Assembly: GCA_000004695.1 (NCBI GenBank)
Contig: CM000150.2
Span: forward strand, 2,272,001 to 2,336,000
Origin: Dictyostelium discoideum
Taxonomy: Eukaryota
Reading direction: 5' to 3'
DNA length: 64,000 nucleotides
The translations under genes were made by a program, and so were the position numbers. Position 1 is the first letter of the stretch, and each line of letters starts with the position of its first letter. The notes under the pieces were generated by a model, which did no database searches, had not been told where the DNA came from, and saw only the letters and a list, made by a program, of their open reading frames with translations. Of the stretch, positions 6,096 to 59,467 are shown in pieces.

Positions 6096-6167
6096 TCCTT
6101 GTTGGTCTAGTGGTGAGGATTTTCGCCTGTCACGCGAAAGGCCCGGGTTCAATTCCCGGACAGGGAG
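6096..6167 (+). tRNA. tRNA-Asp (anticodon GTC), 72 nt
   Basis: Cloverleaf read by hand. Acceptor TCCTTGT/ACAGGGA (one T-G wobble), D arm GTCT-AGTGGTGA-GGAT, anticodon stem TTCGC/GCGAA with loop CTGTCAC, T arm CCGGG-TTCAATT-CCCGG, discriminator G. A T5 run follows immediately. Confidence 0.9.
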
Positions 6168-6173
6168 CTTTTT
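6168..6173 (+). terminator. RNA polymerase III oligo-T terminator for tRNA-Asp
   Basis: CTTTTTA directly after the discriminator base. Confidence 0.6.
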
Positions 6174-6921: not shown

Positions 6922-9414
<2,493 letters not shown>

Positions 9415-9502
9415 ATTATTTAAAATAAAAAAAAATAGAAATGGATTAAAAAAAAAAAAAAAAAAAAAAATTATTTGTAATTGTAATTGTAACTGTATTT
9501 AT

Positions 9503-9562: not shown

Positions 9563-12500
9563 CTTTGTTTTTGATTTTTTATTATTTTCTTTTTTATCAG
9601 TTTCTTCATTTTCATCAGATTTACGTTTAATTGTAATTGAATTTGGAATTGAACCAGGTTTTAAAGCTTTTGACCAATCTTCATCATTTCCTTTAACTAA
9701 ATATTTTGAAAGTGAAGAATCATTTTCTAATTGATGTTTTAATTTGTTTACAACTTCTTCAGCACCTTTTTCCAATTCACTTTCCATATCTTCAGCCAAT
9801 GGAATCATATCAGTCTCTTTGATATCACCTTTAAATGATTTGAATTGACCAGTTCTTGGAGCCACAATTGATAATTTTGGCATTGAATCTTGAATGAATT
9901 TCTCTTGTTTTTGTTTTAACTCTGTATTAATTTTACGCATAGTTTGATTGAATAATGATAAAACTTGATTTGAAGCTAAATTTAATTCACCAATTAAATT
10001 ATCAACAGTTTTATGTTGAAGACCTAATGCTAATAAAATTGCTGATTGAATCAATGAAATATCTTCAATCTTTAATTTATTTGTAAAATATAATTTTGAT
10101 AATGATGGTAATAAATCAATTACAACATGATAATCAACTATATTATTACTATATGATTCTAAACGTTTTAAATCATATGATGAAAATAATAATTCCATTT
10201 CATTTTGTGTTAATTCATTCTTTGTTGTTGACGATGCTACTGCTACTGTATTATTAACTTTCTTTTCATATAAAATATTTAAAGCAATTGATGAATTAAA
10301 ATTTCTAAATTCATAACCTAATAAATTTATAAATCTTTTTTTGAAATCTTGATGGAATGATTGTAACCAACCATCTTTACAAATTGTATTATTTTGTTCA
10401 TTATTTAATTCTCTCAACATAATACAAGTATGTTCACCAGTGATGTCATTTGAAGTTAAACGTAAATAAACTGGTAAATATTTTGATTTACTCCAAAATT
10501 GATAAAGTTGTTGAGTTAAACCATATGATACACCCATATAATGAAGCTTCTCTGGTTTTCTTTCTGAAAGTTTAAATAATAATGGTGGAATATTTGATTT
10601 TGGTCTAATAACTTCTGTTAATAATGATGCATTATCTTTTTTAACTGTTGAAATTTTTGATGAACCTTTATTTTGATCGACTTTTTCTTCGTCCTCTTCT
10701 TCTTCTTCTTGATTAACTTCATCAAGATTTGTAATTTCACCTTGATAATATTGAGTTAATAATTCTAATGCTTTACTACCATAACCCATTTTTTGATAAT
10801 CTGGATGAGTTGCAATACGAACGATTCTAACACCTGAAAGACGTGGGAAATCTTCATCTTGATATTGTTGAGTTAAAGTCCATGGAATTAAATCACCAGA
10901 TGCTTGATAACCACGTTTAATACTATTGAGAATTGATTCTTTTGCAATTTCACCCTCTAAACTAACTTGAACGGCACAAAGGATCTCTGGAAGACCAGTT
11001 GTATTATTTTCATCGATTGGTCCTAACAAAACGAATAAATGATGATCAGGTGCATCAGACATTAACAAGAGATCATTTGGTGAATTTTTATAATGACTTG
11101 ATACGAAAAGTCCAACCATCTTTTGAAGGAATGCTTCGGATGCTTTATGATAACTAAAGAGTGTATCACGATTAACATAATACAATTGACAAGCTGATGG
11201 ATGTGGACAACCTGTTGGGGAACTCTTTGCAATGGTACTATCTAAACAGAGTAATTCATTTAACCAACGTTCAATTGGATCTCTAGCACTGTAACGAATT
11301 GGTTCATTTAATTCAATTTCACGTAACATTCTACCAGTGATTGAGTTTAATGCTTTGTTACTTGAATTTGATACGACGGTTGATTGTTCACGTAATTGTT
11401 TAATCAATTTCAATGATAATGATCTACCAGTACCTTCATAACCATTGATGGTGGATGACATGAATACCAAGTATGGGCCTAATAAATTCTTTACCAATGG
11501 TAATGGAATGGCGGCTGCCTCATCGATTACAACCAATTCAGCTTGACCAAGTTTTTGATAATCTTGTGGTTGAATATATTGAATGGTTTGTCTATGAGAT
11601 CTAAAGATGTTTACACGAATGATTGCATCGTGAAATTCTGGATTGGTAGATTTAACCAATTCATAATCTACATGTTCAACATATTCCATTGAATCGAAAC
11701 CTTTGAAAACAAATTGGAATAATGTGTTCAAATTCTCTGGTGTTGGTGATGATACGAAAATATTTGAATAACCAAATGCAACAGCTGCTGAAATTGCTAA
11801 ACCCAATGCTGCAGATTTACCTCTACCTCTACCTGCGGTCAATGTAACGGTACTTCTTAAAGTTTTCTCAGAGATACTATCAATGAATGTAAGTAATGCT
11901 GTAGCTTGGTCCATGGTCTTGGTATTCTCAATCAATGCACCTGCAATATCGGTATCCTTGACTTGTTGTTTAAATTCACGTAATTCAACCTGTTCTGGTG
12001 TCTCTAAAATTTGTTGTTTTGCTTCAATTGATCTTGATTGACTTGAAATTGGTAAAATATTCAATTCATCATCCATAACTAAACATTGTTCAGATTTACC
12101 CAATGATAATAAGAAACGTTCATTAAATCTACATACAACTTCACCTTTACTATTTTCACTTCTGAATCTTGTATGAACATCCATTGTCATTGTATATAAT
12201 TGTTTTAAACTATCCATGGTTTTCAATAACAATACAATTAAACCACCACCTTCAACAGTCTCAATGGTTCTTGCTAAAAGATTTGGTGTAATTGCTTCAA
12301 AATCTTGTAATACCAACATACCAAATGTATTACCCAATATCTTGTGTGATTCTGAATAATAACTATATCTAATATTGGTTGTTGATATAAAAACATCAAA
12401 TGGATCTTCTTGATTAACTGAATCAATACCTGATGATTTTGATTTTTCTTTTAATTTCATTTTCTTCTTTTTATGTCTTTTTTTTTTTCAAATAAATAAA

Positions 12501-25917: not shown

Positions 25918-30573
<4,656 letters not shown>

Positions 30574-30943
30574 TCTCGAAAATGTGTGGGGGTTTTTATA
30601 TTTTCAAAAAAACATAAAAATACCACCATACACGTTTATATATATAAAAGGTTATAATTTTTTTTTTTTTTTTTTATTGTTGCAAAATTTTGATTAAGAT
30701 TTGTTTTTTTTTTTTTTTTATTATTATTATAAAATTTTTGATTAAGATGTACTTTTTTTTTTTTTTTTTAAATTTAATTTTTTTTATATTTTTTTTTTTT
30801 TTTTTTTCTCCTACTGTTTTTTGATTTTTGATTTTTTTTTTTTTTTTTTTAATTTTTTTTAAAAAATTTTTTTTTATTTTTTAATGTGATATATAGTTAG
30901 ATTGGGTTGGGTTGATTGATATTAATACTGATTTGTGAATTGT

Positions 30944-30983
<40 letters not shown>

Positions 30984-31394
30984 TTTTAAAAATTTAATTT
31001 TATAATTATTTTTTTTTTTTTTTTTGTTTTAAAACTTAATTTTTTAATTATTTTTTTTTTCTATTTTTTTTTTCACTTTTTCTATTTTTTCTCAAAACAA
31101 AAAAATAGGAAGCCAAACGGAACTTTCTTTTGAAACATATGAACAAGCATATATGTGATTATAATTCGGCTTTTTTAGAATAAAAAAATAAATTTTATAA
31201 AAATGAAAATAATTTTTTTTCGAATTTTCGAGTGATCATTTTTTTTTTCATTTTTTGGTTCCACTCCAAGCATAAGAAGTATATTTTTTTTAAATTTAAA
31301 GTCAAAAAAAAAAATAAAAAAAAAAGAGATTTTTCTGAATCTTTTTTTTTTAATTAAAAAAGTTAAATGATTATTTTAAACATATTTAATTAAA

Positions 31395-31437
<43 letters not shown>

Positions 31438-31507
31438 CCAAAAGAATATTATTAGGAAAAATTTATTGAGGTTGCTTGTATTAGTTTAAAAAAAAAAAAA
31501 AAAGAAC

Positions 31508-31672
31508 AAACAAAAAAAAACACTGGTGATTTGGTTATTAAAAAATAATTGCCATTAGTAAATAAAAAAATATTAAAAAAAGACTAAACAAAAAAAAACA
31601 CTGGTGATTTGGTGATTCAAAAAAAAAATAATTGCCATGAGTAAATAAAGAAATTAAAAAAAATATTAAAAA
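31508..31672. repeat. Tandem ~80-bp direct repeat (2 copies) in the intergenic region
   Basis: Copy 1 reads acaaaaaaaaacactggtgatttggttatt-aaaaaataattgccattagtaaataaa...atattaaaaaa. Copy 2 reads acaaaaaaaaacactggtgatttggtgattc-aaaaaaaaaataattgccatgagtaaataaa...atattaaaaaa. Confidence 0.75.
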
Positions 31673-31729
31673 ATAAAAATATAAAAAGATAAATAAGTTT
31701 CATCACATTTTTTTATTTTTAAACTTCGA

Positions 31730-31764
<35 letters not shown>

Positions 31765-32382
31765 ACCAACAGATTATTAGGGTTCGGAAAAATAAATTTA
31801 TGAGGTTGTTTTTAAAAAAAAAAAAAAAAAAAAGACTAGAAAATTAAAAATAAATAAATAGTTGTCTAAATAAATGTTAAAAGACAATCTTACAATTTTT
31901 ACGGATTAGTGATAAGATGAGCCTGGTCTTTGGGAATTTTTAAAAAAAAAAAAAAAAATCAAAAAAATCAAAAATATCTTGGCACCCAGCCGAAGAAAAA
32001 AAATAATTGTTCCATTGGTGAGTGGAATCAAAAAAAGAATGTTCATCTTATCTAAAAATAGTAAATGAATGGTTTTTGTTGAGAAAATTCATTGGGGAAT
32101 TTTGAAAATCCTTAAGATTAAGATGGGATTTGTTCGTAATTTATTGCTGTGCATTTGAAATTAAATACCACAGAGTTATTTTTATTTTATTTTTATTTTT
32201 ATTTTTTTTATTTTTTTTTTTTTAACAATAATAGTTTTTAGTATAAATAGTTTTGTTTTTGTTAAAGCTCAACACCAAATTCAAACAGTTGGAAAAAACA
32301 AATAAATAAATTAAAATTTTTTTTTATAAAAAAAAAAAAAAAAAAAAAAAAACAATACATATATATATATTTATAAAATAAA

Positions 32383-33729
32383 ATGAAATTATCATATACA
32401 ATCTTTTCACTATTTATAATTTTTAATTGTTTTTATTATTTTTCAGAGTAAGTTTAAAAAACTTTTAAATAAAAAAAAAAAAAAAATAGTATTTAATTAA
32501 TAAAATTTAATTATAAAAAAATATTAGAGCCCAATCAATTACTTCTATTAGTAGCATTTATAAAGGAATAACTCAAAATGTAACATTAACCGGTACTGGA
32601 TTCACACAAACAACAAATCTTACACTTAAAAATACTTTTTCATTTTATGGAGTTGTAATTCAATGTCCATCAATAGTTTTTAGTAAGTTTTTTTTTTTTT
32701 TTTTTTTTAAAGAATTTCAATATTAATATTTTATATATAAAAAAAAAAAAAAGTTAATTCAAATAGTATGCAATGTGAAATTCCTTTAGCATGGGCATCG
32801 GATTATACTCAAGTTGCAATTAATAATACATATAATTCAAGATATCTTACAGCCATCTCTACCACAATGGATAAAGTTGAAATTTTATCATCAAGAATTG
32901 TAAAAGTTACAGGTGATGCTTTATTACCAGTAAATTCTACTTTCCAACTTCAAATATACAATAACACAAAATATAATCTTACATGTAAATCTGAAACATT
33001 ATACAAGGTTTATTCATGTGAAATTCCATTTGATAACTTATTAACCAACTGTTTTAGAATTAATTATATTGATTCTTCAAGTTCAACTTATGAATATGTC
33101 TATTTAGGTATGTAGAAAGTTTATTTTTTAATAAGAATGATATTTTTAAAAAATAAATTACTAACATTAAATTTATATTATTATTGAAAATAATATTAAT
33201 AGGACCAACATTAAATTCAATTGAATTATTAGGAAATTCATTGAAATTTGATGCAGATGTTCATTGCCCAACTACAGCTCCATCTTTAAGTATTATTATT
33301 AACTCTATCCCATTCTCAAGTAATATCCAAAATTCATTTGGTAATACTTATTTATATCAACCAACATTCACTCTTTGTACCGACTTTTCCAAATTATTTA
33401 ATATTTCCATTACTGCCTCCTTTTCTTATTCTTCTTCAATTAAGTTTACTTCAAATATGATTAAATTTGATTGTTCCATTGGTAAAGCTACTTCCTCTGA
33501 TAATGGAACATCCACTCCTGTACCAACTTCTGAACCTTCCTCCACCCCAACTCAAACTCAAACTCAAACTCCAACTCCAACTCAAACTCAAACTCAAACT
33601 CCAACTCAAACTCATACACCAAAACCAACAATCCCAAATGAAACAAGTGAATTTTATGATTCCTCTGCATCAAATCTCTCGATTACTAGCACTTTCTTTA
33701 TTTTATTAATGATTGCTTTATTATTTTGA
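32383..33729 (+). CDS. GPI-anchored cell-surface glycoprotein with an IPT/TIG-like domain and a (TQ/TP)n stalk. Exons: 32383..32447, 32528..32682, 32754..33107, 33203..33729.
   Basis: Signal peptide MKLSYTIFSLFIIFNCFYYFS; donor GA|GTAAGT. Exon 2 reads SISSIYKGITQNVTLTGTGFTQTTNLTLKN...CPSIVF, which is IPT-like. Exon 3 needs an A-rich acceptor (aaaaag|TT) to keep frame with ORF 32768. Exon 4 ends in a TQTQTP stalk and a hydrophobic GPI signal (ITSTFFILLMIALLF). Confidence 0.6.
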
Positions 33730-38967: not shown

Positions 38968-39009
<42 letters not shown>

Positions 39010-39231
39010 AAATAATAAAACATAAAATGTAAGTATTACAAATAATAATTTAAAAATTAATATTTACTCTTTGATATTAATATTAATATTAATATTAATT
39101 TTTTATTTTTTTTTTTTTTATTTTTTTTTTTTTTTTTTTGTTTCTATGCAAAAAAAAAAAGAAATTATACTTTTATTATTATTATTATTATTGTTATATT
39201 ATTTTAAATAATAATAATAATAATAATAAAA

Positions 39232-48600: not shown

Positions 48601-51600
48601 TCAATTCCTTATGTTTGGGATTTACCATTGGAAGATCATATTTTAGAGGTATTAGTACATATATCAACCAATCAAAGTGAAAAGGCATCTTATAAGATGG
48701 ATAAAATTAAAACTTTTAGACCAATGGAATTTAATGATGATCATAATCCTGTGGTTATTAAAGCGATTGTTGAAGCTGATGAATCAACTCGTGTATTAAC
48801 ACTCTCTGATAAGACATCATTTCAAATTAGTAAATATGAAGAAGAGAATTTACGTCAATCATTTAGAATTCATTTCACTGGTATCGGTATATCAGTTATT
48901 AATGCAAATCCAACAGAACTTCTTTACGTTTCAATTCATGATATCCTTTGTGAATATTTCATTAGTAGTTTTCTTCAAAAGTTAGAGATGAAAATTACAA
49001 ATATTCAAGTTGATAATCAATTATCAAAAGTTACACCCTATAGTCATCCAGTTTTATTATTTGCAGATAATCTATTACCAAATACACCATTCTTACAAGT
49101 TAGAATAGTAAGATCAATGAAAATGAAAAATATTGATTACTATCATCATGTCTCTTTGAAAATGCAAGAATTAAACATTAAAGTTGAAGAGAAATTCCTT
49201 TACGTATTATTGGATTTCTTTAATAGTTTAGATTTCTCATTTTGGACAGGTAATAAAAAGACAAATACTCTACATAATATGGATATGTTAACTCCAATGT
49301 ATAATGAAGATATTGGTGAAGGATTTATAGATGAAATGGTAGCTCGTGCTCTACCTTCAATCTATGGTAAGAAAATGTATTTCGAATCATTGGATATTGA
49401 ACCAATTAGTATGTTTTTAACATTTGATCTTTCAAATAAGTCTGGTTCAATCGCAAGTTTAGAACAAGCTCCAATGGTAAAAGCATTTAGAAGAATAGGT
49501 TTCGTTATTGTTAGTTTTCAACATGCTCATATATTTTTACATGGTTTCTCATTATCTCATGCATTTGGTTCGAATGAAGAATTGCTTGCACCAATTTTCA
49601 ATCATTACTTTAGTGAAGGTTTATCTGAAGTTTATAAAATATTGGGAGCATTTAATTTGTTTGGTAATCCAGTTGGTTTGGTTACAAACTTTGGAATTGG
49701 TTTTAAAGAATTTTTCGTTAGTATGGGTAAAGGTTTGGTAGGAAATAGTTTTACTGATTCATTTGGTCAAGGTTCAAAAAGTTTAGCAAAACATTCAGTC
49801 TATGGTATATTTGATTCGGGTGCAAAACTAACAGGTTCTGCTGGTAAAGTATTATCAACACTTTCAATGGATCAACGTTATATTCTAGAGAGACAATATA
49901 TCATTGGTGAATCACCAAATACATTTATGCAAGGTTTAATATTGGGTGGTAGAGCTGCAAAAACTGCTGTTTATCGTGGTTTCTCCGGTTTCGTAAAATT
50001 ACCTTATGAAGGTGGTAAAGAAGCAGGACCAAAAGGTGTTGTCAAAGGTATTGGTAAAGGAACTGCTGGTCTTGTGCTAAAACCAATTGCAGCTGGCTTT
50101 GATTTTGCTTCAAAAGTTTCAGAGGGTATTAAAAATTCAACTCAATTAAGTATAGAAAGAAAGAGAATTAGATTTCCACGTCCACTCTTTAGTGATTCAC
50201 CATTAGAAACATATGATTCAGCTGAAAGTTATGGTCACTTTTTATTCCTTACCTATATTATCACCGCTGGTAAACTTAGAAGAATCTCTGCTGATCAAAT
50301 TAATTTACCATTAATGGAAGTGGTTTCAAAGGATGAAAAATATGTTTCTCATTTAATCTATAAAAATAGAAAAACCCTTCTTTTTACCAATAAAAGAATT
50401 ATCTATCTCTATGATACCGATGGTTTTAGAACAAAATTCGATATAAAATATACAAGAATTCATGGTGTTTCTGAAAAATCAGATCATATCGATATAAAAA
50501 TAGATAAAAAACATAAACTATCATTCCTCTACAATGAAAAGAATAAAAAGATAGACTATAGAATCAAGTGTGTTGGTGAAGAGAAATCCTATATCTTTTA
50601 TAGAATAATAGAAATGATTAAAACTTATAAACCATTTGCTGATGAAGAGTTAACTGTCAATGGTTTAAAGGCTGACCCAACTACAATGATTCCAATTCCA
50701 CCACCACCCCCACCACCACTACAACAACAACTATTATATGGTTCAAATATTATTCAACAACAGCCACCAATTCAGTATTTCAATGATGGTAGTAGTAGTA
50801 GTAGTAATTTAACTGGTGGTAGAACAATTCAACCAATTATCTTTACAAATGATGCTGGTCCAATGAGAAATGATTTAAATCCAATACTTGAGAATTTATT
50901 AGCTCAACAACCAAATAAGAATATGGAGATTCCAATTTGGATTTCACAAGGTTTCAATCCACCAAAACCACCAGATACATTAATTCCACAAAGATTTAGA
51001 GACCCAAATTTAATTAATAATAATAACAACTACTATTATCCAAATGGTTCTGGTTATGTTTATTCCCAACCACCACTATATGATCAATATGGTAATCAAA
51101 TTCCACCTCCCCCACCACTTCCATCACATCCATTAGCTATTGATCGTCCAACTACAACTACAACAACAAATACAACCACAACACCCTATCAATCATCTCA
51201 AAATATTCACTCAACACCATACCCAACTGAAACTCCTCAATCTGTTGTATTAAAAGAAGATATTTCAAAAGCAATTCATACTCCATCTGCTAGCTCTTTA
51301 AAGAAATTAAAAACCCCTCATCATTACAATGTAAGATTTGAACCATCAAGTAGTTTAGGCCCTCAAGATTTTGATATTCATACAATTCGTTTACAAAATC
51401 AACAATATCAACACAGTGGAAGTGGAGCACCCCCACCCCCACCAATAATAACCACAACAACTAATTCAACCATTCCACCACCATCTTCTAATATAAATCA
51501 ACGTCAATTACAACATCAATTCTCTAGTAATTCGATAATAGAAACACCAAGATATAAAAGCATGGCTAGACAACAACAATTTCAACAACCACCACCTCCA

Positions 51601-59081: not shown

Positions 59082-59467
59082 GGTGCAGGTTATACCACAA
59101 AAAATTATTATATGACTGTGGTTTGTAAATAAATAGAAAAAAAATAAAATAAAATAAAAAAATTAAAAAAATGAATTGATCAATTTAGAGTGGGTGTTTT
59201 TTTTTTTTTTTTTTATTTGTGTGTGTTTTTATATGTTATTGAAACAAAAAAAAAAAAAAAAAAATAAAAGAAAATTTTTTTTTTTTTTATTTTGATTATT
59301 ATTTTTTTTATACAATGATTATTTGAAAATAACTTTTTAAAATTATTTAATATATAAACAATGGTGATGGACAGACACACTAAAATTACAGATTTATATT
59401 AGGGAGCAAAGAGTTTTTTTCTTTTTTTTTTTTTTTTATTTTTTTAAAAAAAAAAAAATTAAAAAAA

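What the first reader, a model, noticed from the sequence alone, without database searches (positions are those of the whole stretch)
31440..32160. Repeat-structured, compositionally atypical intergenic module between divergent genes
Most of this 1.8-kb spacer is poly(A/T). This sub-region instead contains a tandem ~80-bp repeat (31508..31672) and a second repeated motif (attattagg..aaatttattgaggttg at 31451 and attattaggg..aaatttatgaggttg at 31774). It also has an 11-nt inverted repeat (gataagatgag at 31911 and ttcatcttatc at 32042) flanking GC-containing unique sequence (gcctggtctttggg, cttggcacccagccgaag, ccattggtgagtgg). Such complexity in an AT desert suggests transcription-factor site clusters or a small ncRNA gene.
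Basis: seen in the sequence. Interest (0 to 1): 0.5.

Follow-up and report, generated by a model that had tools for sequence, protein, structure and literature searches.

The report
Promoter-upstream motif cluster plus strain-specific duplication
The flagged stretch of Dictyostelium intergenic DNA has two parts: fast-evolving AT-rich filler carrying a strain-specific tandem duplication, and a conserved 260-bp block upstream of a gene's TATA box that looks like an ordinary transcription-factor binding-site cluster, not an RNA gene.

Summary
The window is D. discoideum AX4. The spacer lies between a kinase gene (minus strand) and DDB_G0268878 (plus strand).

Comparison with three other D. discoideum or cf. 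discoideum assemblies and with D. purpureum splits the interval in two.

(1) 31436-31860, which holds the 78-bp tandem repeat and the 'attattagg...gaggttg' repeat, is the least conserved part of the spacer.
- The 78-bp unit is single-copy in two other strains.
- It is absent from D. cf. discoideum.
- I read it as slippage or unequal exchange between poly(A) tracts, with no evidence of function.

(2) 31903-32165 is almost free of indels. It sits 80-340 bp upstream of the conserved TATA box of DDB_G0268878.
- The '11-nt inverted repeat' is two inverted copies of GATAAGATGA.
- TAAGATG occurs three times here. It occurs only six times in the whole 64 kb, four of them in this spacer.
- It also occurs three times at the matching position upstream of the D. 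purpureum ortholog, including an identical 15-mer.

No Rfam hit, no DUSE element and no covariation were found. The inverted-repeat spacing is not kept in D. purpureum, and the most deeply conserved segment is unstructured.

Verdict: an upstream cis-regulatory module beside neutral repeats. Ordinary; low interest.

The parts
31487..31679 (.). 78-bp tandem repeat, 2.4 copies. It is a copy-number-variable duplication: two copies in the AX4 window and one in two other strains.
   Evidence: TRF. The units are 85% identical. There is one copy in L001 and L004, and no core words in L003.
31407..31520 (.). Copy 1 of a dispersed ~115-bp direct repeat: A-run, TCACCAAAAGAATATTATTAGG...AAATTTATTGAGGTTG, A-run.
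   Evidence: 98/125 to copy 2. The core GGAAAAATTTATTGA is shared by all four assemblies. The motif is not repeated elsewhere in the 64 kb.
31735..31854 (.). Copy 2 of the dispersed direct repeat. It is decayed in the other strains.
   Evidence: In L001 and L004 it is split by an inserted T/A run and the 'tgaggttg' end is lost.
31903..32165 (.). Conserved, nearly indel-free block ('island 2'). Proposed upstream cis-regulatory module of DDB_G0268878.
   Evidence: Against L003 it has 18 substitutions and 1 gap in 261 nt. The adjacent 31436-31854 has 26% substitutions and 42% gapped positions. Identity in 100-bp windows is 0.91/0.93/0.87, compared with 0.14-0.64 just upstream.
31911..31921 (+). 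Left arm of the inverted repeat, GATAAGATGAG. It is TAAGATG site 1 and overlaps a WGATAR match (TGATAAG).
   Evidence: Invariant in all four assemblies.
32042..32052 (-). Right arm of the inverted repeat, read on the minus strand as GATAAGATGAA. It is TAAGATG site 2 and overlaps AGATAAG.
   Evidence: It lies in the longest invariant run, 46 nt.
32115..32129 (+). AGATTAAGATGGGAT, containing TAAGATG site 3. This 15-mer is identical at the syntenic position in D. purpureum (L002 9677-9691).
32073..32165 (+). Sub-block detectably conserved with D. purpureum (L002 ~9636-9718), in the same orientation and at a similar distance from the ortholog's ATG.
   Evidence: blastn. nhmmer gives its best hit in the 21-kb locus here, E=0.0011. 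No excess RNA structure: z +0.46 and -0.38.
32242..32249 (+). TATAAATA, the inferred TATA box of DDB_G0268878. It is followed by a T-rich stretch, and the ATG is at 32383.
   Evidence: Sequence. TAGTATAAATAGTTTT is invariant in the four assemblies. TAGTATAAA is also present upstream of the D. purpureum ortholog. The role as core promoter is inferred, not shown.
32383..33729 (+). DDB_G0268878, a secreted IPT/TIG-annotated protein of 366 aa in 4 exons. It is the probable target gene.
   Evidence: The spliced model is 100% identical to the AX4 protein.

Best explanation
The interval is composite.

(a) 31436-31860 is unconstrained AT-rich spacer. Recombination or replication slippage between long poly(A) tracts has produced local duplications there. 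These are a 78-bp tandem duplication that varies in copy number between strains, and an older, decaying ~115-bp dispersed duplication. No function is needed to explain them.

(b) 31903-32165 is an upstream regulatory module (proximal enhancer or UAS) of the plus-strand gene DDB_G0268878. It lies 80-340 bp upstream of that gene's TATA box. I propose that it works as double-stranded DNA, presenting several copies of a TAAGATG(R) site in both orientations to a sequence-specific transcription factor. The factor is unidentified and possibly dimeric. Two of the sites also match the GATA-factor consensus WGATAR. The T-rich tract and TATA box downstream complete the promoter.

Shown: the repeats, their polymorphism, the conservation pattern, and the motif clustering in two species. 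Inferred: that the motif is protein-bound, which gene it regulates, and the TATA box and transcription start assignment.
For: **Gene context.** The window gene equals AX4 DDB_G0268878. The neighbouring gene is a divergent kinase gene.

**Duplications are polymorphic.**
- The 78-bp unit is single-copy in L001 and L004, and its core is absent from L003.
- L004 carries a further private duplication in the same zone.
- 31436-31854 against L003 shows 26% substitutions and 42% gapped positions.

**Constraint on the block.**
- 31903-32165 has 6.9% substitutions and 1 gap.
- Other ungapped noncoding blocks average 12.3%.
- The longest invariant runs, 46 and 36 nt, are the ones carrying TAAGATG sites.

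**Motif clustering.**
- TAAGATG occurs 6 times in 64 kb (11.9 expected by shuffling).
- Three of these lie within 213 bp here and a fourth lies elsewhere in the same spacer. The other two lie in what reads as coding sequence, well outside this spacer.
- In D. purpureum, 3 of 5 sites in 21 kb lie within 129 bp upstream of the ortholog. They include the palindrome TTAAGATGACCATCTTAA.
- In an enumeration of all k-mers that did not presuppose the motif, CATCTTA/TAAGATG is the top 7-mer enriched in both species. It occurs 3 times against 0.025 expected, and 3 times against 0.048 expected, with a joint p of 5e-11 over about 365 k-mers.
- The region bounds for that test were chosen after the sequences had been inspected.

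**Syntenic identity.**
- AGATTAAGATGGGAT is the only syntenic exact word of at least 15 nt with at least 4 G/C shared by the noncoding DNA of the two species.
- It is one of only three such shared words overall.
- nhmmer gives its best hit in the D. purpureum locus at that spot, E=0.0011.

**Evidence for DNA rather than RNA.**
- The spacing and order of the motif copies differ between the species. The inverted copies are 120 bp apart in D. discoideum and 2 bp apart in D. purpureum.
- The deeply conserved segment has no excess RNA structure.
Against: - The block's substitution rate (6.9%) equals that of third codon positions (7.3%). With such close relatives the constraint signal is modest, and part of it is simply the lack of indel-prone homopolymers.
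- The D. purpureum alignment is short, with a weak score (10.7 bits).
- BLAST E-values in this AT-rich DNA are unreliable.
- The motif was recognised after looking at both sequences.
- No expression, chromatin or binding data could be consulted.
- No known Dictyostelium factor is documented to bind TAAGATG. A full-text search returned papers containing the string but none with the motif in its title or abstract, and none was opened.
- The GATA match is absent from the D. purpureum copies.
Confidence: 0.6

Rival explanations
1. 31903-32060 encodes an unannotated structured ncRNA of about 140 nt. The 11-12-bp inverted repeat forms a closing stem around two small hairpins.
For: The plus-strand fold is -33.4 kcal/mol against -20.9 +/- 3.4 for shuffles (z = -3.68, 0 of 200 shuffles as stable). 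The stem arms and both hairpins are invariant in four assemblies. GC content is coding-like.
Against: - No Rfam family matches, even at E<=10.
- There is no DUSE ([AT]CCCA[AT]AA) anywhere in the spacer. That element precedes many D. discoideum small ncRNA genes (PMC3188802, PMC7919456).
- No Class I motif is present.
- None of 44 predicted pairs shows a compensatory change, and the covariation term is +0.38.
- An inverted repeat of this kind appears in 8.5% of shuffles.
- The interior contains A17 and A7-8 runs whose length varies between strains.
- In D. purpureum the two motif copies are 2 nt apart, so the 120-nt enclosed structure is not conserved.
- The part that is conserved in D. purpureum lies outside the stem and is unstructured.
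Confidence: 0.1
2. Nothing here is functional. The block is ordinary intergenic DNA that happens to be more complex, so it aligns cleanly. The motif recurrences are coincidence.
For: Its substitution rate equals that of third codon positions. Some other noncoding blocks are equally or more conserved, for example 38984-39086 at 1.9%. The inverted repeat alone is not significant.
Against: - TAAGATG is triplicated at the orthologous position in a species whose intergenic DNA is otherwise unalignable, and an identical syntenic 15-mer is present.
- The invariant runs coincide with the motif copies.
- In a genome whose intergenic DNA is mostly at 4-17% GC, a 260-bp noncoding stretch kept at about 26% GC without indels suggests maintenance.
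Confidence: 0.2
3. The block is transcribed as part of the DDB_G0268878 mRNA, as a long 5' UTR or an upstream exon. It would include a short upstream ORF starting at the conserved AAGATGGGA (32123), and that ORF would regulate translation.
For: ATGGGA is conserved in D. purpureum. It opens an 11-codon ORF in D. discoideum and a 10-codon ORF in D. purpureum. A splice-donor-like GGTGAGT occurs at 32018.
Against: - A conserved TATA box followed by a T-rich stretch lies downstream, at 32242, which predicts a start near 32270.
- The nucleotide conservation after the ATG ignores reading frame: TGCATTT is in different frames in the two species, and the alignment has an 8-nt gap.
- D. cf. discoideum has three non-synonymous changes out of four in the 11 codons.
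Confidence: 0.07
4. The block is a relic of a lost gene, or a small inverted-repeat transposon. D. purpureum has two extra genes in this interval.
For: D. purpureum carries two paralogous genes (L002 4971-6202 and 7604-8824) between the kinase gene and the ortholog. The block is bounded internally by inverted repeats.
Against: - tblastn and tblastx of those genes against the spacer give nothing better than E of about 0.5-2, even in a tiny search space.
- Indels between strains do not preserve any reading frame.
- There is no second copy of any part of the block in the 64 kb.
- I saw no target-site duplication, and the block is present at the same site in all four assemblies.
Confidence: 0.03

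Closest known systems
Developmental promoter or upstream-activating regions of Dictyostelium genes bound by sequence-specific factors, for example GATA-like motifs at GtaC-bound intergenic peaks (PMC4506546)
   Same: - It is noncoding DNA a few hundred bp upstream of a TATA box.
- It is richer in G/C than the surrounding poly(A/T).
- It carries several short motif copies in both orientations.
- Two copies match WGATAR (TGATAAG and AGATAAG).
   Different: - The shared core is TAAGATG, not GATA, and the D. purpureum copies lack a GATA match.
- No binding or expression data exist for this locus.
- The factor is unknown.
DUSE-driven small ncRNA genes of Dictyostelium (Class I/II RNAs, snRNAs; PMC7919456, PMC3188802)
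   Same: It is a short GC-containing island in an AT-rich intergenic region, with complementary ends predicted to pair.
   Different: - No DUSE at about 60 nt upstream or anywhere in the spacer.
- No CCTTACAG motif.
- The size is about 140 nt, not 42-65 nt.
- The interior is A-rich.
- No covariation and no Rfam hit.
Minisatellite-type tandem duplications in AT-rich intergenic DNA
   Same: The 78-bp unit is repeated head to tail, is bounded by homopolymer tracts, and differs in copy number between strains.
   Different: There are only 2.4 copies. The copies are already about 4% diverged in their complex core (2 substitutions and a 5-nt indel in about 50 nt), so the duplication is not very recent.

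Membership tests
Promoter-proximal cis-regulatory module (TF-site cluster) | Noncoding, and upstream of a gene's core promoter | tested here: met
   The block 31903-32165 lies upstream of TATAAATA at 32242-32249 and the ATG at 32383. No reading frame survives the strain indels.
Promoter-proximal cis-regulatory module (TF-site cluster) | Sequence constraint relative to flanking noncoding DNA | tested here: inconclusive
   The block shows 6.9% substitutions and 1 gap. Other ungapped noncoding blocks average 12.3%, and the adjacent DNA shows 26% substitutions with 42% gapped positions. However, the block's rate equals the third-codon-position rate of 7.3%.
Promoter-proximal cis-regulatory module (TF-site cluster) | A clustered short motif, independent of orientation, retained at the orthologous promoter with turnover in spacing | tested here: met
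   TAAGATG occurs 3 times in each species' upstream region, against 0.025 and 0.048 expected. The arrangement differs between the species.
Promoter-proximal cis-regulatory module (TF-site cluster) | Protein binding and an effect on transcription | not testable with these tools
   No expression, ChIP or ATAC data were available. The gene ID is absent from the searchable literature.
DUSE-dependent Dictyostelium ncRNA gene (Class I/II, snRNA) | DUSE [AT]CCCA[AT]AA about 60 nt upstream | tested here: not met
   There are 7 matches in the 64 kb and none between 30574 and 32382. The consensus comes from PMC3188802.
DUSE-dependent Dictyostelium ncRNA gene (Class I/II, snRNA) | Class I 11-nt motif (CCTTACAG/CTTACAGC) next to a short terminal stem, with length 42-65 nt | tested here: not met
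   The only exact CTTACAGC is inside exon 3, at 32846. The candidate is about 140 nt long.
Any curated RNA family (Rfam 15) | Covariance-model match | tested here: not met
   The only hit is a chance SNORD81 match of 21 bits against a gathering score of 50, and it lies in coding sequence.
Structured ncRNA (generic) | Compensatory base changes supporting the fold | tested here: inconclusive
   0 of 44 pairs covary. The stems are invariant in four close assemblies, so they are uninformative.
Structured ncRNA (generic) | Structure retained in a distant ortholog | tested here: not met
   The D. purpureum motif copies form an 8-bp palindrome with a 2-nt spacer and do not enclose a domain. The shared segment has z of about 0 in both species.
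Tandem duplication or minisatellite | Head-to-tail copies with copy-number polymorphism | tested here: met
   TRF. There is one copy in L001 and L004.
GATA-factor binding sites (WGATAR) | Consensus present and conserved | tested here: inconclusive
   TGATAAG and AGATAAG are present in both D. discoideum arms and invariant in four assemblies. The D. purpureum copies read TTAAGATG, with no GATA.
Inverted-repeat transposon (MITE-like) | Multiple genomic copies and target-site duplication | tested here: not met
   No other copy in the 64 kb. I saw no direct repeat flanking the arms. Genome-wide copy number could not be tested.

The most novel reading that the evidence does not exclude
31903-32060 is transcribed as a new, DUSE-independent structured ncRNA of about 140 nt. 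Its closing stem is the conserved inverted repeat, and it sits beside (or is co-regulated with) the DDB_G0268878 promoter. If so, the TAAGATG copies would act at the RNA level as well as the DNA level.
Probability: 0.08. Interest if true: 0.5.

Novelty: new member of a known kind. Interest (0 to 1): 0.2.

Why it matters
If the reading is right, it yields one concrete, testable candidate cis-element: TAAGATG(R). In this sample it is confined to noncoding DNA of one divergent promoter region, and it is retained between D. discoideum and D. purpureum. It also yields a defined 260-bp fragment for reporter assays on an uncharacterised secreted IPT/TIG gene. It further illustrates that in this genome conspicuous repeats in AT-rich spacers can be strain-private noise, while the unrepeated GC-bearing island next to them carries the conserved signal. 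None of this would surprise a specialist.

Tried and rejected
- Rfam at the gathering threshold and at E<=10 gave nothing relevant.
- tRNA scan: the only hit is tRNA-Asp at 6096.
- DUSE and Class I motif scans: none in the spacer.
- Consensus folding of four assemblies gave no covariation.
- Pseudogene relic of the two extra D. purpureum genes: tblastn and tblastx gave no signal.
- Small ORFs in the block (46 aa on the minus strand, 41 aa on the plus strand, and the 11-codon ATGGGA ORF) were rejected. Strain indels break the frames, and the D. purpureum conservation is frame-independent.
- Plain blastn E-values between the species were abandoned as a statistic. Poly(A/T) tiles give far 'better' E-values by low complexity alone. 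I replaced them with counts of G/C-containing exact words.
- Fetching intermediate species through the kinase gene failed. One protein search returned only a Logan fragment, and the other saturated on generic kinases.
- A JGI metagenome scan for the footprint AGATTAAGATGGGAT...TGCATTT gave 0 hits.
- Literature searches for the gene ID gave 0 papers, and the search for TAAGATG returned no paper with the motif in its title or abstract; none of the 23 papers holding the string was opened.

Full report
**Context.** The window is Dictyostelium discoideum AX4 DNA.
- I assembled the plus-strand gene to the right of the spacer from four exons (32383-32447, 32528-32682, 32754-33107, 33203-33729). Its product is 100% identical to DDB_G0268878, which UniRef annotates as an IPT/TIG domain-containing protein. 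Pfam itself reports no domain.
- The left neighbour is a minus-strand multi-exon protein kinase gene with its ATG at 30573.
- The spacer runs from 30574 to 32382 and is 1.8 kb long.

**Observation check.**
- TRF finds a period-78 array at 31487-31679 with 2.4 copies, 83% matches and score 250. The two full units are 84/99 identical.
- The second motif starts at 31448 and 31773, slightly off the stated 31451 and 31774. It is part of a longer dispersed repeat, 31407-31520 against 31735-31854, at 98/125 identity inflated by A-runs.
- The inverted repeat is at 31911-31921 and 32042-32052, with 10 Watson-Crick pairs plus one G-U.
- GC rises to 0.23-0.29 across 31800-32200.
- The inverted repeat alone is not beyond chance. 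170 of 2000 dinucleotide shuffles contain a comparable one.

**Comparative data.** Using the DDB_G0268878 protein I fetched the orthologous loci from four assemblies:
- two other D. discoideum assemblies (L001, L004);
- one 'D. cf. discoideum' assembly (L003);
- D. purpureum (L002).

The four-way alignments divide the flagged interval sharply.

*Left part (31436-31860).* This is the least conserved part of the whole spacer.
- Identity to L003 in 100-bp windows is 0.14-0.64.
- Aligned columns show 26% substitutions, and 42% of positions are gapped.
- The 78-bp unit is single-copy in L001 and L004, where it is closest to AX4 unit 2 at 43/52. Its core words are absent from L003.
- L004 has a further private duplication nearby.
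- The second copy of the attattagg motif has lost its 'gaggttg' end in L001 and L004.

*Right part (31903-32165).* This block behaves differently.
- It has 18 substitutions and a single gap in 261 nt against L003.
- Its invariant runs reach 46 and 36 nt.

A caution applies here. The 6.9% rate equals the third-codon-position rate (7.3%). It is only about half the mean of other ungapped noncoding blocks (12.3%), and some of those are equally conserved. With relatives this close, constraint is suggestive, not proven.

**D. purpureum.** The two species' intergenic DNA is otherwise unalignable.
- A profile built from the four assemblies gives its best hit in the 21-kb D. purpureum locus at 9646-9716, with E=0.0011 and the next hit at E=1.5. 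This lies about 285-355 bp upstream of the ortholog's ATG, in the same orientation.
- The hit contains the exact 15-mer AGATTAAGATGGGAT (window 32115-32129, L002 9677-9691).
- I compared about 10.7 kb of complex noncoding window DNA with about 11.1 kb from D. purpureum. Only three distinct shared words reach 15 nt or more with at least 4 G/C. This is the only syntenic one.
- Plain blastn E-values are useless here because poly(A/T) tiles score far better by low complexity alone.

**The motif.**
- TAAGATG occurs six times in the 64 kb, against 11.9 expected. The sites are at 30743, 31913, 32044 (minus strand) and 32119 in this spacer. Two back-to-back copies lie at 48686 and 48693, in what reads as coding sequence and well outside this spacer.
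- In D. purpureum, three of five sites in 21 kb lie at 9681, 9794 and 9803 (minus strand). The last two form the palindrome TTAAGATGACCATCTTAA, about 70 bp upstream of the TATA-like region.
- I enumerated all k-mers shared by the two upstream regions. CATCTTA/TAAGATG ranks first, at 3 against 0.025 expected and 3 against 0.048 expected. The joint p is about 5e-11 over about 365 k-mers. I chose the region bounds after inspecting the sequences.
Both also match the GATA consensus WGATAR. Dictyostelium GATA factors such as GtaC bind GATA-like motifs in intergenic DNA (PMC4506546). The D. purpureum copies lack GATA, so I leave the factor unnamed.
- A second, weaker shared element, CCATT..GAGTGG.AA, occurs on opposite sides of the 15-mer in the two species.
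- Motif retention with changed spacing and order is what turnover of binding sites in enhancers looks like. It is not what a collinear RNA gene looks like.

**Promoter architecture.**
- TAGTATAAATAG at 32240-32251 is invariant in all four assemblies, and TAGTATAAA recurs in D. purpureum.
- It is preceded by a T-rich tract (32176-32224) and followed by a short T-rich run.
- From general knowledge of Dictyostelium promoters, a TATA box followed by an oligo(dT) stretch precedes the transcription start. This assignment is inferred.
- The conserved block therefore lies 80-340 bp upstream of the core promoter.

**RNA hypothesis.**
- The plus strand of 31900-32060 folds better than shuffles (z = -3.68). 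The minus strand does so less clearly (z = -2.1).
- No Rfam family matches, even at E<=10.
- The DUSE consensus [AT]CCCA[AT]AA, found about 60 nt upstream of many D. discoideum small ncRNA genes, has no match anywhere in the spacer.
- The Class I motif is absent.
- None of 44 predicted pairs shows a compensatory change.
- The segment actually shared with D. purpureum is unstructured in both species, with z from +0.46 to -0.38 in D. discoideum and +0.04 in D. purpureum.
- The enclosed-domain geometry is not kept in D. purpureum.

**Other alternatives.**
- D. purpureum has two extra paralogous genes between the kinase gene and the ortholog. The spacer shows no similarity to them, so a pseudogene relic is not supported.
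- Small ORFs fail on frame-breaking strain indels and on frame-independent conservation.
- No other copy of the block exists in the 64 kb.

**Verdict.** The finding is real but ordinary. It consists of neutral, strain-variable duplications in AT-rich filler, next to a conserved upstream regulatory block. The signature of that block is a TAAGATG(R) site cluster retained in D. purpureum. The 'small ncRNA' alternative is not supported, but it cannot be excluded without expression data.

Noticed in passing
window 31075-31262: A second conserved island lies in the same spacer, with 5.9% substitutions and no gaps against D. cf. discoideum. It contains AGCCAAACGG...ATTCGGCTTTTTT, which has complementary ends and a T-run, and TTTTCGAATTTTCGAG. 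It sits where the AT skew switches from T-rich (30650-31100) to A-rich (31300-32060). The folds are not significant (z -1.15 and -1.47). A strain substitution (AGCC to AGCG) breaks the terminal stem. No D. purpureum counterpart was found.
   Followed up: partly
window 30690-30749: A direct repeat, TTTTGATTAAGATT / TTTTTGATTAAGATG, lies about 50-110 bp upstream of the kinase gene's TATA-like element. The second copy carries the fourth noncoding TAAGATG site in the 64 kb, so the same motif may serve both divergent genes. D. purpureum has no TAAGATG upstream of its kinase ortholog.
   Followed up: partly
L002 4971-6202 and 7604-8824: D. purpureum has two paralogous minus-strand genes between the kinase gene and the IPT/TIG ortholog. 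They encode proteins of about 364 and 378 aa with a hydrophobic C-terminus and no Pfam domain. They are absent from this interval in all four D. discoideum-group assemblies and have no homolog in the 64-kb window.
   Followed up: partly
window 30170-30370: A long trinucleotide (ATA/TAT-type) microsatellite lies in the first intron of the kinase gene. It produces spurious poly-Y and poly-I ORFs and is completely unalignable with D. cf. discoideum (0% identity in 30201-30300).
   Followed up: no
L004 ~9380-9470 (alignment A1 columns 1430-1490): One D. discoideum assembly carries a private duplication of a TAAAATAAGATTAGAAAAT-containing unit in the same variable zone. This is further evidence that the zone is prone to copy-number change.
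   Followed up: no
window 59360-59415: An isolated GC-containing island of about 55 bp (AATGGTGATGGACAGACACACTAAAATTACAGATTTATATTAGGGAGCAAAGAG) lies between long T- and A-runs. It shares a 16-mer with a non-syntenic site in D. purpureum (L002 6149), probably by chance. It has a box-C-like GGTGATG but no box D.
   Followed up: no
window 32831-32902 (minus strand): A weak SNORD81 match (21 bits against a gathering score of 50, E=1.7) lies inside coding exon 3 of DDB_G0268878. I regard it as chance.
   Followed up: yes
window 6096-6168: tRNA-Asp (GTC), the only Rfam or ARAGORN hit in the window.
   Followed up: no
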